Assembly (NCBI RefSeq): GCF_000026545.1
Contig: NC_011601.1
Strand: one strand, 5' to 3'
DNA from: Escherichia coli O127:H6 str. E2348/69
GTDB taxonomy: Bacteria > Pseudomonadota > Gammaproteobacteria > Enterobacterales > Enterobacteriaceae
DNA: 64,000 nucleotides
Part shown: positions 57,001-60,000 of the stretch, piece by piece
How positions within the stretch are numbered: the stretch's first letter is position 1
Layout: the number at the start of each line of letters is the position of its first letter
Program-made: the position numbers

Positions 57001-60000
57001 CTTGCCATGCTCCAGTCCTTTTCTTCTGGGCCGACTTTCCGGGAGGTGCTTAAACGAAAAACCCCGCCCGGTTTGCGCCGGCGGGGTTTTGGAATCGTGT
57101 GTTGTTCCAGTCCCTACGGCGCATTGCCGACGACCACCACCACACGCACGACGACCACTGCGGCAGATGGCGCAGTTGGTAGTAGTTTTGCGTTGAACAT
57201 GGAAGTAGTCATTAGGGACCTTGTTGGTTTTGTGTTTAACAATATTTATACAAGCACAGCTTTACAGGGGAGACAATGGAAAATTTTTCTTCCGGATAAA
57301 AATACGTGGCAGATCACATTTTGAACTGAAACTCAGGCAATAAAGCATCATCACCTGAAAGACGGTCAGATTGTTGACAGAGTGCGCCTTATTCATGTCG
57401 AATACAGCGTAAACACCTTACCCTACCAACCGCACCATCACTGTTTCCGGCAACATTTATTGCCGCTTTTGTTTACATATTCTGCCGCTAAACAATTCCC
57501 CATTCCTGGCGTATATCTGGCTAACATTCATCAATGTGATAGATTCCTCTCCCGCATTTATGGGAATGCGTAGTGACTTATTCTAATTATTTTTATAAAA
57601 GCATCCGTGATAATGAAAAGGCATAGAAACGTCAATTTGTTATTGATGTTGGTATTACTCGTGGCCGTCGGTCAGATGGCGCAAACCATTTATATTCCAG
57701 CTATTGCCGATATGGCGCGCGATCTCAATGTCCGTGAAGGGGCGGTGCAGAGCGTAATGGGCGCTTATCTGCTGACTTACGGTGTCTCACAGCTGTTTTA
57801 TGGCCCGATTTCCGACCGCGTGGGTCGCCGACCGGTGATCCTCGTCGGAATGTCCATTTTTATGCTGGCAACGCTGGTCGCGGTCACGACCTCCAGTTTG
57901 ACGGTATTGATTGCCGCCAGCGCGATGCAGGGGATGGGCACCGGCGTTGGCGGCGTAATGGCGCGTACTTTGCCGCGCGATTTATATGAACGGACACAGT
58001 TGCGCCATGCTAACAGCCTGTTAAACATGGGGATTCTTGTCAGTCCGTTGCTCGCACCGCTAATCGGCGGTCTGCTGGATACGATGTGGAACTGGCGTGC
58101 CTGTTATCTCTTTTTGTTGGTTCTTTGTGCCGGTGTGACTTTCAGTATGGCCCGCTGGATGCCGGAAACGCGTCCGGTCGACGCACCGCGCACGCGCCTG
58201 CTTACCAGTTATAAAACGCTTTTCGGTAACAGCGGTTTTAACTGTTATTTGCTGATGCTGATTGGCGGTCTGGCCGGAATTGCCGCCTTTGAAGCCTGCT
58301 CCGGCGTGCTGATGGGCGCGGTGTTAGGGCTGAGCAGTATGACGGTCAGTATTTTGTTTATTCTGCCGATTCCGGCGGCATTTTTTGGCGCATGGTTTGC
58401 CGGACGTCCCAATAAACGCTTCTCAACGTTGATGTGGCAGTCGGTTATCTGTTGCCTGCTGGCTGGCTTGCTGATGTGGATCCCCGACTGGTTTGGCGTG
58501 ATGAATGTCTGGACGCTGCTCATTCCCGCCGCGCTGTTCTTTTTCGGTGCCGGGATGCTGTTTCCACTGGCTACCAGCGGCGCGATGGAGCCGTTCCCCT
58601 TCCTGGCGGGCACCGCTGGCGCGCTGGTCGGCGGTCTGCAAAACATTGGTTCCGGCGTGCTGGCGTCGCTCTCTGCGATGTTGCCGCAAACCGGTCAGGG
58701 CAGCCTGGGGTTGTTGATGACCTTAATGGGATTGTTGATCGTGCTGTGCTGGCTACCGCTGGCGACGCGGATGTCGCATCAGGGGCAGCCTGTTTAAGCT
58801 CACGTCACCGCAGCATCGTCATCAGCTCCATGGGAGAACGATGCTGCTTTATCAGATCACGCATCACCCGCATATGCGGCGCGGAGTAAGAATAAAACGC
58901 CTGATAGCCCGCACAAAGCACGTTGTCTGGCGTCTCCTCCCGAGCGTGCGGGCACAGGCGATGCCAGTCGCACGCCTGGCAGCCACGACGCGGTTGCGGG
59001 TTTTCGCTGCCACACCATTTTTGTAGGGTGGCGTCAAAAAGCTCAATCGAAATACGACTGATATCTGCCCGTACCCAACACTCGAACAGGGCAATTAAAA
59101 ATTTCCCCCACAGCTCTGCTGTCACCGAAGCGGCCGTCAGATCGCCCCGGTCATCAAATTCAAGATGGGGAATAAGCTGTACTGAGCGGATGCCCAGCTG
59201 TTTGAAATTGTGATAAAAATCGGCAGGTTGCAGAGCATCCTTATACTCTACAACCAGTTTATGCCTGTCCTCTTCAGCATCAATGACCTGACTTCCTGTC
59301 ATGCGACTCTCTCAATAAATACGATAAGTTGATGTATATGCGTTACAGCAAACAGTATTGCGAGAGATAACACCGCGAGGGAGATCAAAAATTTGTCACG
59401 GACTACGTGAAATTGGGAAAAATCGCTATTCGTGACATCCATTAAATTGCGATTACGGGTGTAGTGCCAGAGGATCAGCGCCACAATGGCGAGGATGCCA
59501 ATCGAAATCCAGAATAACATGCCCGCCTGGTGCCAGTTGTGTTTGATAGCCAACGCCATCAACGCGCCGTAGCCCAGCATGGTACGAAACCACGCCAGTG
59601 ATGTGCGTTCCGGCTGCAGCCCTGGGTCGGCAATGCGTCTGGCTTTGCGGCTATCCGGCATACAACACCAGTCCCATGACGATCACTGCCACGACCATCA
59701 ATATTAAGCTAATGATTAATAAGCTGTTGGTATAGGGCAGGTCCTCTTTCAGGCGCATCGCTTTTTCATTGCGTAACCAGCGCAAGTAGCCATACATCGC
59801 TAACCCGCCGGAAAACAGACACAACAACAACGCCAGCAGTTCGCGGATGACGGGCGTGGCGAAATCTGGCGCAAGTTGATCAAGCCCAACCCCCGCCGCC
59901 AGAAATCCTAGTGCAGTACGGATCCACGCCAGAAAAGTACGCTCATTAGCCAGCGAGAAGCGGTAATCGGGCGCTTCTCCGAGGCGGGAAATTTTCATTG

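What the first reader, a model, noticed from the sequence alone, without database searches (positions are those of the whole stretch)
57060..57212. ilvB leader peptide and attenuator (a feature absent from the ORF track)
A 32-codon ORF with a run of ten valines interrupted only by one arginine (AAVVVVRVVVVVG), followed by a GC-rich hairpin plus T-run, is the textbook Val/Leu attenuation leader for ilvBN. It is included because the six-frame track omits it by its length cutoff.
Basis: partly seen in the sequence, partly recalled or inferred. Interest (0 to 1): 0.2.

Follow-up and report, generated by a model that had tools for sequence, protein, structure and literature searches.

The report
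ilvBN leader peptide and attenuator (ivbL)
This is the well-known valine/leucine-sensing leader peptide and transcription attenuator (ivbL) in front of the E. coli ilvBN acetolactate synthase genes; it is real but ordinary and already annotated.

Summary
On the minus strand, window 57212..57114 is a 32-codon ORF, MTTSMFNAKLLPTAPSAAVVVVRVVVVVGNAP*. A GC-rich hairpin plus U5 follows at 57090..57057, 49 nt before the ilvB start codon.

Three corrections:
- There are nine valines (4+5), not ten.
- The feature is on the minus strand.
- The U-run extends 3 nt beyond the given start.

The window is E. coli, and RefSeq annotates exactly these bases as ivbL. The peptide matches NCBIfam NF007579 and Pfam PF08049 over its full length, above the curated cut-offs.

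A −21.9 kcal/mol antiterminator (57123..57074, z = −4.0) shares 57085..57074 with the −21.1 kcal/mol terminator. In ribosome-mask folding it forms when the A site is on Val codons ~20–27. It is abolished once the ribosome reaches codon 28/29 or the stop codon.

Across 12 leaders from eight genera, the stretch from codon 17 to the U-run is almost invariant, synonymous sites included (9/12 invariant, against 25/140 in ilvB). Covariation in the main stems is therefore absent. A "protector" helix is not statistically supported.

The regulatory half is identical to K-12, where attenuation has been shown experimentally. Verdict: already known, low interest.

The parts
57245..57250 (-). Candidate -10 hexamer TATAAA of the ilvB promoter; the transcription start is inferred near 57238
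   Evidence: Read from the sequence. TTGTATAAAT is conserved in 12 leaders from 8 genera. The promoter scanner did not report it because it requires T at position 6. The start site was not verified here, because the original paper PMC347078 is not held.
57303..57318 (-). Candidate CRP half-site pair TGTGA-N6-ACGTA, centred about -72 from the inferred start
   Evidence: Read from the sequence. K-12 has CGTGA-N6-CCTCA at the aligned place. cAMP control of ilvB is established knowledge (title of Friden et al. 1982, cited in PMC3783181). Binding was not tested here.
57213..57238 (-). C/A-rich 5' UTR with the Shine-Dalgarno AAGG at 57222..57219
   Evidence: The 5' UTR of ivbL is a verified GcvB (R1 region) target in K-12 (PMC9299463). 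This segment is poorly conserved across genera, with 5/28 columns invariant.
57114..57212 (-). ivbL leader ORF: 32 codons plus UAG
   Evidence: RefSeq annotation; NF007579 and PF08049.
57180..57185 (-). Tandem Leu codons CUA CUA (codons 10-11)
   Evidence: Invariant, third positions included, in all 12 leaders.
57157..57176 (-). Small hairpin ACUGCG/CGCAGU immediately 5' of the Val codons
   Evidence: -7.1 kcal/mol, z = -2.4. One compensatory change, U-A to C-G, in 3 of 12 taxa, both at synonymous third positions.
57129..57158 (-). Regulatory Val codons: GUG GUC GUC GUG (19-22), CGU, GUG GUG GUG GUC GUC (24-28)
   Evidence: Nucleotide sequence nearly invariant across 8 genera.
57074..57123 (-). 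Antiterminator. UGCGCCG (57123-57117) pairs with CGGCGCA (57080-57074), and GGG (57114-57112) pairs with CCC (57085-57083). It encloses a small hairpin at 57109-57090.
   Evidence: -21.9 kcal/mol, z = -4.0, 0/200 shuffles as stable. Pair list. 95% of cells paired in 12 taxa, with one compensatory A-U to U-A change in the inner hairpin.
57057..57090 (-). Intrinsic terminator (attenuator): stem 57086-57078 / 57071-57062, bulged G at 57069, U5 at 57061-57057
   Evidence: -21.1 kcal/mol, z = -2.3. 97% paired and 11/13 pairs invariant in 12 taxa. A Term-seq 3' end 'ivbL_t' is reported in K-12 (PMC9023263).
55320..57008 (-). ilvB, acetolactate synthase I large subunit (562 aa)
   Evidence: NF006016 at 1085 bits.
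55026..55316 (-). ilvN, small subunit (96 aa)
   Evidence: ORF; position matches ilvN.

Best explanation
This is ivbL, the leader peptide gene and ribosome-mediated transcription attenuator of the E. coli ilvBN operon (acetohydroxy-acid synthase I).

Transcription starts about 26 nt upstream of the leader ATG, and a ribosome loads on the leader. What happens next depends on charged tRNA supply.

- If charged tRNA-Val (and tRNA-Leu) is plentiful, the ribosome runs to codons 28-32 or the UAG. Its footprint then covers GCGCCGUAGGG (57122-57112). This leaves CCCCGCCGG (57086-57078) free to pair with CCGGGCGGGG (57071-57062). The hairpin plus U5 ends transcription before ilvB.
- If Val-tRNA is scarce, the ribosome stalls on the nine Val codons (57158-57129). 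GCGCCGUAGGG stays exposed and pairs with CCC..CGGCGC (57085-57074) as soon as that stretch leaves the polymerase, before the terminator's 3' arm exists. The terminator cannot form, and RNA polymerase reads into ilvBN.

Shown here: the ORF, its family membership and synteny; the two competing helices, their energies and overlap; the dependence on stall position in a mask model; and conservation across genera.

Inferred, or taken from the K-12 literature: actual translation, the kinetic order of folding, and the in vivo response to Val/Leu. How stalling at the two CUA Leu codons is transmitted is not resolved. cAMP-CRP at the promoter and the sRNA GcvB are additional known layers of control.
For: Identity and annotation:
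- The region is 100% identical to many E. coli genomes in which the same bases are annotated ivbL, with ilvB next.
- K-12 ivbL (b3672) aligns with only 3 nt differences between about -55 and the ilvB ATG. It is identical from codon 17 onward.

Family membership:
- NF007579 equivalog 80.1 bits (cut-off 60); PF08049 75.7 bits (cut-off 25).

Structures:
- Antiterminator -21.9 kcal/mol (z = -4.0) and terminator -21.1 kcal/mol (z = -2.3) share 57085..57074.
- The whole leader folds with z = -4.8.

Ribosome-mask model:
- In nascent RNA, P(antiterminator helix) is about 1 with the A site on Val codons 20/21-27.
- It falls to 0 from codon 28/29 to the stop codon, for footprints of +10 to +15 nt.

Conservation:
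- All 10 orthologous ilvB loci fetched from 7 other genera carry a 31-33 codon leader with LL and a VVVV(R/S)VVVVV-type Val run (one has AVVV, E. albertii six trailing Val) and the same hairpins.
- From codon 17 to the stop codon, 41/51 columns are invariant; in the terminator, 30/34. Compare 5/28 in the 5' UTR and 19/48 in codons 1-16.
- Synonymous third positions are invariant in 9/12 leader codons, against 25/140 ilvB codons.

Experiments on the K-12 allele:
- Val/Leu feeding lowers expression of an ivbL-gfp fusion (PMC11187965).
- Increased ribosome occupancy at the ivbL UAG increases attenuation (PMC5373646).
- A Term-seq 3' end lies at ivbL_t (PMC9023263).
Against: - There is no covariation in the main antiterminator or terminator stems, because they are invariant in the taxa sampled. 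The comparative support is conservation, not compensatory change.
- At equilibrium, full-length RNA favours the terminator for every stall position (P >= 0.77). Antitermination therefore has to be kinetic, which was not simulated.
- The candidate protector pairing (Val codons with the post-stop region, 57157-57091) is no more stable than shuffled sequence (z = 0.04).
- The nascent-RNA equilibrium predicts the antiterminator even with the ribosome parked far upstream. The model therefore does not reproduce termination in the absence of translation.
- No Rfam family exists to score the RNA against.
- The original 1982 structure model could not be read.
Confidence: 0.97

Rival explanations
1. The hairpin is only an ordinary terminator or insulator, and the Val-rich ORF is a chance or untranslated reading frame. 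ilvBN would be controlled by promoter-level factors (CRP) and the sRNA GcvB rather than by leader translation.
For: CRP and GcvB control of this operon are real (PMC9299463; title of Friden et al. 1982, cited). The Term-seq study rated ivbL_t a weak terminator.
Against: The Val pattern occurs 0 times in 100 shuffles. The ORF, with its Shine-Dalgarno sequence, length and Val and Leu codons, is conserved in 8 genera. There is no gene upstream on this strand that would need a terminator here: ysdE ends 244 nt upstream and the promoter lies in between. Reporter experiments in K-12 show dependence on Val/Leu and on stop-codon occupancy.
Confidence: 0.01
2. The conserved element is the peptide itself. 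IvbL would be a small hydrophobic peptide with a function of its own, and sequence conservation would reflect protein-level selection.
For: The C-terminal 16 residues are nearly invariant across genera.
Against: Conservation extends to synonymous third positions (9/12 invariant, against 25/140 in ilvB). It also continues past the stop codon into the non-coding hairpins. Protein-level selection does not explain either. The N-terminal half is free to vary. Natural length variants that gain or lose Val codons exist in E. coli and Shigella.
Confidence: 0.02

Closest known systems
E. coli K-12 ivbL-ilvBN attenuator (b3672; Friden, Newman & Freundlich 1982)
   Same: It has the same locus, length and strand relation to ilvB. 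It is nucleotide-identical from codon 17 through the terminator to the ilvB ATG. It belongs to the same NCBIfam and Pfam families.
   Different: There are three substitutions:
- CTC to TTC at codon 6 (Leu6Phe), leaving 2 rather than 3 Leu codons.
- A synonymous TCC to TCT at codon 16.
- C to T two nt before the ATG.

Upstream of about -55 the sequence diverges (88% over 116 nt), and the K-12 tisB/istR locus is absent.
ilvL (ilvGMEDA), leuL, trpL, hisL, thrL, pheL leader-peptide attenuators of Enterobacteriaceae
   Same: They use the same logic: a short translated ORF enriched in codons for the pathway's end products, followed by alternative antiterminator and terminator hairpins.
   Different: They are separate families with unrelated sequences. 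This one senses Val (9 codons) and Leu (2 CUA codons) and lacks Ile codons. Several of the others have Rfam models, but none hit here.
Corynebacterium ilvBNC leader / uORF (ilvB-II motif)
   Same: It is also a Val/Ile/Leu-rich leader ORF upstream of an acetohydroxy-acid synthase operon, with a proposed three-hairpin attenuator (PMC11857589, PMC10272879, listed).
   Different: It is unrelated in sequence and lineage and belongs to a different operon (ilvBNC). It was not compared further here.

Membership tests
IvbL / IlvB_leader (NCBIfam NF007579, Pfam PF08049) | Peptide matches the family profile over its full length above the curated cut-off | tested here: met
   NF007579: 80.1 bits against a cut-off of 60, residues 1-32 on profile 1-32. 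PF08049: 75.7 bits against a cut-off of 25.
IvbL / IlvB_leader (NCBIfam NF007579, Pfam PF08049) | Lies immediately upstream of ilvB-ilvN (AHAS I) on the same strand | tested here: met
   The leader stop codon is at 57114 and the ilvB ATG at 57008. IlvB matches NF006016 at 1085 bits. ilvN lies at 55316..55026. The arrangement is the same in 10 other loci.
IvbL / IlvB_leader (NCBIfam NF007579, Pfam PF08049) | Run of Val codons plus Leu codons as regulatory codons | tested here: met
   Nine Val codons (GUG x5, GUC x4) and CUA CUA. K-12 has a third Leu codon at position 6, which is Phe here. Position 6 varies among genera.
Ribosome-mediated transcription attenuator (trp/his/leu/ilv type) | Intrinsic terminator between the leader stop codon and the first structural gene | tested here: met
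   57090..57057, -21.1 kcal/mol, U5 tail. Conserved in 12 taxa.
Ribosome-mediated transcription attenuator (trp/his/leu/ilv type) | Antiterminator helix mutually exclusive with the terminator | tested here: met
   57123..57074, -21.9 kcal/mol, z = -4.0. It shares 57085..57074 with the terminator's 5' arm and loop. This is a prediction only, with no covariation because the stems are invariant.
Ribosome-mediated transcription attenuator (trp/his/leu/ilv type) | A ribosome stalled on regulatory codons permits the antiterminator; a ribosome at the end of the ORF blocks it | tested here: met
   In the mask model, P(antiterminator) is about 1 for the A site on Val codons 20/21-27 and 0 from codon 28/29 to the stop codon. 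This is in silico only.
Ribosome-mediated transcription attenuator (trp/his/leu/ilv type) | Protector (1:2) pairing that enforces termination when the leader is not translated | tested here: inconclusive
   RNAalifold and MFE folds propose pairing of the Val codons with the post-stop region. Its energy equals that of shuffled sequence (z = 0.04), and the nascent equilibrium still prefers the antiterminator.
Ribosome-mediated transcription attenuator (trp/his/leu/ilv type) | Leader is translated, and read-through responds to Val/Leu supply in vivo | not testable with these tools
   Shown for the K-12 allele with reporter fusions (PMC11187965; PMC5373646). The window is identical to K-12 in the regulatory half.

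The most novel reading that the evidence does not exclude
The allele in this window belongs to an E. coli lineage resembling phylogroup B2. It carries Leu6Phe, a C-to-U change 2 nt before the ATG that lengthens a predicted 5'-UTR/stop-region pairing by 2 bp, a diverged CRP-site region, and no tisB/istR locus upstream. This combination might tune ilvBN expression differently from K-12, for example with weaker leucine sensing or altered leader translation or cAMP dependence.
Probability: 0.08. Interest if true: 0.15.

Novelty: already known. Interest (0 to 1): 0.05.

Why it matters
It matters little beyond annotation completeness. ORF tracks with a length cut-off miss this 32-codon regulatory gene. 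The only modest added value lies in three points:
- A quantitative picture of which stall positions free the antiterminator.
- The demonstration that the regulatory half, synonymous sites included, is almost frozen across eight enterobacterial genera.
- The note that the classical 'protector' helix has no statistical support from energy alone.

Tried and rejected
1. An Rfam scan of the region at E <= 10, and of the whole window at gathering score, found no leader family. The only hits were weak matches of unrelated sRNA models to the terminator hairpin on the wrong strand.
2. The simple promoter/terminator scanner missed both the terminator (bulged G) and the TATAAA -10 hexamer.
3. A genome-contig scan with the degenerate pattern GTNGTNGTNGTNNNNGTNGTNGTNGTNGTN failed. 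The loci that this scan created (L003 onward, up to L122) should be ignored.
4. The search for homologous proteins refuses queries under 40 aa. The 42-aa TTG-extended ORF was used instead.
5. The original paper (PMC347078) is not held, so the published transcription start and stem numbering could not be checked.
6. My first P(terminator) measure, the minimum over stem pairs, was uninformative: it was constant at 0.39 because of alternative bulge registers. One search replaced it with single central pairs.
7. I briefly assumed the window was strain 536. I rejected this because the window has uhpA directly after ilvN and lacks the DUF6708 gene that 536 carries there.
8. The long-range pairing of the SD/AUG region (GGUCCCUA) with UAGGGACU seen in the MFE fold is not maintained in other genera, which show a central mismatch and no compensation (read). 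I therefore did not adopt it as part of the mechanism.

Full report
**What is there**

The feature lies on the minus strand. Window 57212..57114 is an ATG-initiated ORF of 32 sense codons plus UAG. It encodes MTTSMFNAKLLPTAPSAAVVVVRVVVVVGNAP. An AAGG Shine-Dalgarno sequence sits 6 nt upstream of the ATG (57222..57219).

The Val block is GUG GUC GUC GUG CGU GUG GUG GUG GUC GUC. Two rare Leu codons, CUA CUA, are at positions 10-11. The pattern GTNx4-NNN-GTNx5 occurs once in the 64-kb window, even with two mismatches allowed, and never in 100 dinucleotide-preserving shuffles.

Twenty-three nt after the stop codon comes AAAACCCCGCCGG-CGCAAA-CC(G)GGCGGGGUUUUU (57090..57057), which folds at -21.1 kcal/mol. 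ilvB (562 aa) starts at 57008 and ilvN follows at 55316..55026.

**Identity**

A 431-nt query spanning the leader is 100% identical to many complete E. coli genomes, including 536, E2348/69 and F11. It matches 5418 of 5426 genomes overall. In all of them RefSeq annotates 'ivbL: ilvB operon leader peptide IvbL' under the match. In strain 536 the ivbL CDS maps exactly to window 57212..57114.

The peptide matches the NCBIfam equivalog NF007579 (80.1 bits, cut-off 60) and Pfam PF08049 IlvB_leader (75.7 bits, cut-off 25), both over residues 1-32 of a 32-position profile. IlvB matches NF006016 (1085 bits, cut-off 870).

From about -55 to the ilvB ATG the window differs from K-12 MG1655 (b3672) at three positions only:
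- C to T two nt before the ATG.
- CTC to TTC at codon 6 (Leu6Phe).
- TCC to TCT, synonymous, at codon 16.

From codon 17 through the terminator to ilvB the two are identical.

Folding the leader gives a strongly non-random structure: -75.4 kcal/mol, z = -4.8. Two local elements compete.

- The terminator (57090..57057) folds at -21.1 kcal/mol with z = -2.3.
- The antiterminator (57123..57074) folds at -21.9 kcal/mol with z = -4.0, and 0 of 200 shuffles are as stable.

In the antiterminator, UGCGCCG (the last sense codons) pairs with CGGCGCA. The GGG that begins with the G of the UAG stop codon pairs with CCC. Together they enclose a small hairpin at 57109..57090. The antiterminator uses 57085..57074, which is most of the terminator's 5' arm and its loop, so the two cannot coexist. 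On segment 57165..57057, forcing the terminator gives -44.9 kcal/mol and forcing the antiterminator gives -36.5 kcal/mol.

**Stall-position model**

I masked the mRNA up to 10, 12 or 15 nt 3' of the first A-site nucleotide and folded what remains.

In nascent RNA that ends before the terminator's 3' arm (at 57072), the antiterminator helix has probability about 1 when the A site is on Val codons 20/21 to 27. With the ribosome on codons 18-19, the terminator's 5' arm is instead sequestered by the exposed GGUGGUGG of the Val block. From codon 28/29 through the stop codon the footprint covers GCGCCGUAGGG and the antiterminator probability is 0. Only the terminator can then form.

So seven or eight of the nine Val codons are productive stall sites. 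A ribosome that finishes the ORF enforces termination. This is exactly the classical logic.

There are two caveats:
- At equilibrium the complete RNA favours the terminator at every stall position (P >= 0.77). Read-through must therefore rest on the antiterminator forming first and persisting while about 15 more nt are made. That is inference, not a simulation result.
- The model also predicts the antiterminator when the ribosome is parked far upstream. The candidate 'protector' pairing (Val codons with the post-stop region, 57157..57091, -21.7 kcal/mol) is no better than shuffled sequence (z = 0.04). The third helix of the textbook scheme is therefore not supported by energy alone.

How stalling at the two CUA codons, about 60 nt upstream, is transmitted is also not resolved.

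**Comparative evidence**

A peptide search returned 47 IvbL-family peptides, all with PF08049. An IlvB search gave orthologues in other genera.

I fetched DNA for E. albertii, Salmonella, Pseudocitrobacter, Intestinirhabdus, Leclercia, three Enterobacter and two Klebsiella. Every locus has a 31-33 codon leader ORF about 100 nt upstream of ilvB.

In the 12-sequence alignment, the number of invariant columns differs sharply by segment:

| Segment | Invariant columns |
|---|---|
| 5' UTR | 5/28 |
| Codons 1-16 | 19/48 |
| Codon 17 to stop | 41/51 |
| Terminator | 30/34 |
| Terminator to ilvB ATG | 24/48 |

Among codons with an invariant amino acid, third positions are invariant in 9/12 leader codons 17-32 (mean pairwise identity 0.91). 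In the first 190 ilvB codons the figure is 25/140 (mean pairwise identity 0.61). The constraint is therefore on the RNA or on codon identity, not on the peptide. CUA CUA is invariant in all 12.

Both helices are maintained: 97% of cells are paired for the terminator and 95% for the antiterminator. Because the stems do not vary, they show no covariation.

The only compensatory changes are these:
- A-U to U-A in the inner hairpin, in Leclercia and E. hormaechei.
- U-A to C-G in the small hairpin at 57176..57157, in Klebsiella and Pseudocitrobacter, both at synonymous sites.

One Enterobacter lacks the bulged G, which makes the terminator stem perfect.

**Literature on the identical K-12 regulatory half**

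- ivbL is described as the Val/Leu-responsive attenuator of ilvBN. An ivbL-gfp fusion is repressed by feeding Val and Leu but not by six other amino acids (PMC11187965).
- Leucine-starvation modelling treats the ivbL Leu codons as regulatory and cites Friden et al. 1982 (PMC3783181).
- Higher ribosome occupancy at the ivbL UAG in an RF3 mutant increases attenuation (PMC5373646).
- Term-seq finds a 3' end, 'ivbL_t' (PMC9023263).
- GcvB represses ivbL and ilvB translation through its R1 region. RNase E cleaves in the ivbL-ilvB spacer (PMC9299463; PMC11347164).
- The original paper (PMC347078) could not be read. The transcription start (about 57238, from the conserved TATAAA at 57250..57245) and the CRP site (TGTGA-N6-ACGTA at 57318..57303) are therefore my inferences.

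**Verdict**

The feature is a member of a known, curated family at its canonical locus, annotated in RefSeq and experimentally characterised in K-12. Novelty is 'already known' and interest is very low.

The only non-excluded novel reading is that this lineage's allele tunes regulation slightly differently. It carries Leu6Phe, a change next to the Shine-Dalgarno sequence, a diverged CRP region and no tisB/istR locus. I rate that reading as unlikely and of little consequence.

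Noticed in passing
window 57331-57446 (between ivbL promoter and ysdE): The tisB/istR-1/istR-2 toxin-antitoxin locus lies between ivbL and ysdE in K-12 (L002 3608-4256). It has no counterpart in the window, where 116 nt unrelated to K-12 occupy the position. Only 1103 of 5418 E. coli genomes cover at least 80% of a query that includes this stretch, so the tisB-less arrangement is a minority form. An Enterobacter sp. also has a TisB gene upstream of ivbL (L127), so the linkage is old.
   Followed up: partly
window 57215-57330: There is a sharp change in divergence from K-12 inside the ilvB promoter region. The sequences are identical from about -55 to the leader, except for a single C-to-T change 2 nt before the ATG. 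Identity is only about 88% over the 116 nt upstream, which includes the presumed CRP site (TGTGATCTGCCACGTA here, CGTGATCAACCCCTCA in K-12).
   Followed up: partly
proteins P0018, P0019, P0020, P0025, P0038, P0041: Natural IvbL length variants exist in E. coli and Shigella. They gain or lose Val codons within the GTG/GTC repeat. Examples are a 25-aa Shigella sonnei form with only three Val (seen on 25 contigs), 26-aa and 31-aa forms, and a 39-aa form with the VVVVVR unit duplicated. These look like slippage products and should change Val sensing.
   Followed up: no
window 57457-57531 (-): A 24-codon ORF, MNVSQIYARNGELFSGRICKQKRQ, is annotated as ysdE in RefSeq. It has no NCBIfam hit. A terminator-like hairpin on the plus strand (57448-57465, CGGCAACATTTATTGCCG plus a T-rich tail) overlaps its 3' end.
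   Followed up: no
L131, L132 (Klebsiella), alignment A3 columns 126-128: Klebsiella leaders have Ser (TCT) instead of Arg (CGT) between the two Val blocks and are one codon shorter. The interrupting residue is therefore not fixed, although the Val codons around it are.
   Followed up: no
window 6278-6368 (+): tRNA-Sec (selC) is the only Rfam hit at gathering score in the whole window (83.8 bits). selC is a known island insertion site in E. coli, by general knowledge. Its surroundings were not examined.
   Followed up: no
window 54363-55026: uhpA (196-aa ORF, 54953..54363) follows ilvN directly, as in K-12. Strain 536, whose leader is identical, carries an extra DUF6708 gene between uhpA and ilvN. 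The window is therefore not strain 536.
   Followed up: partly
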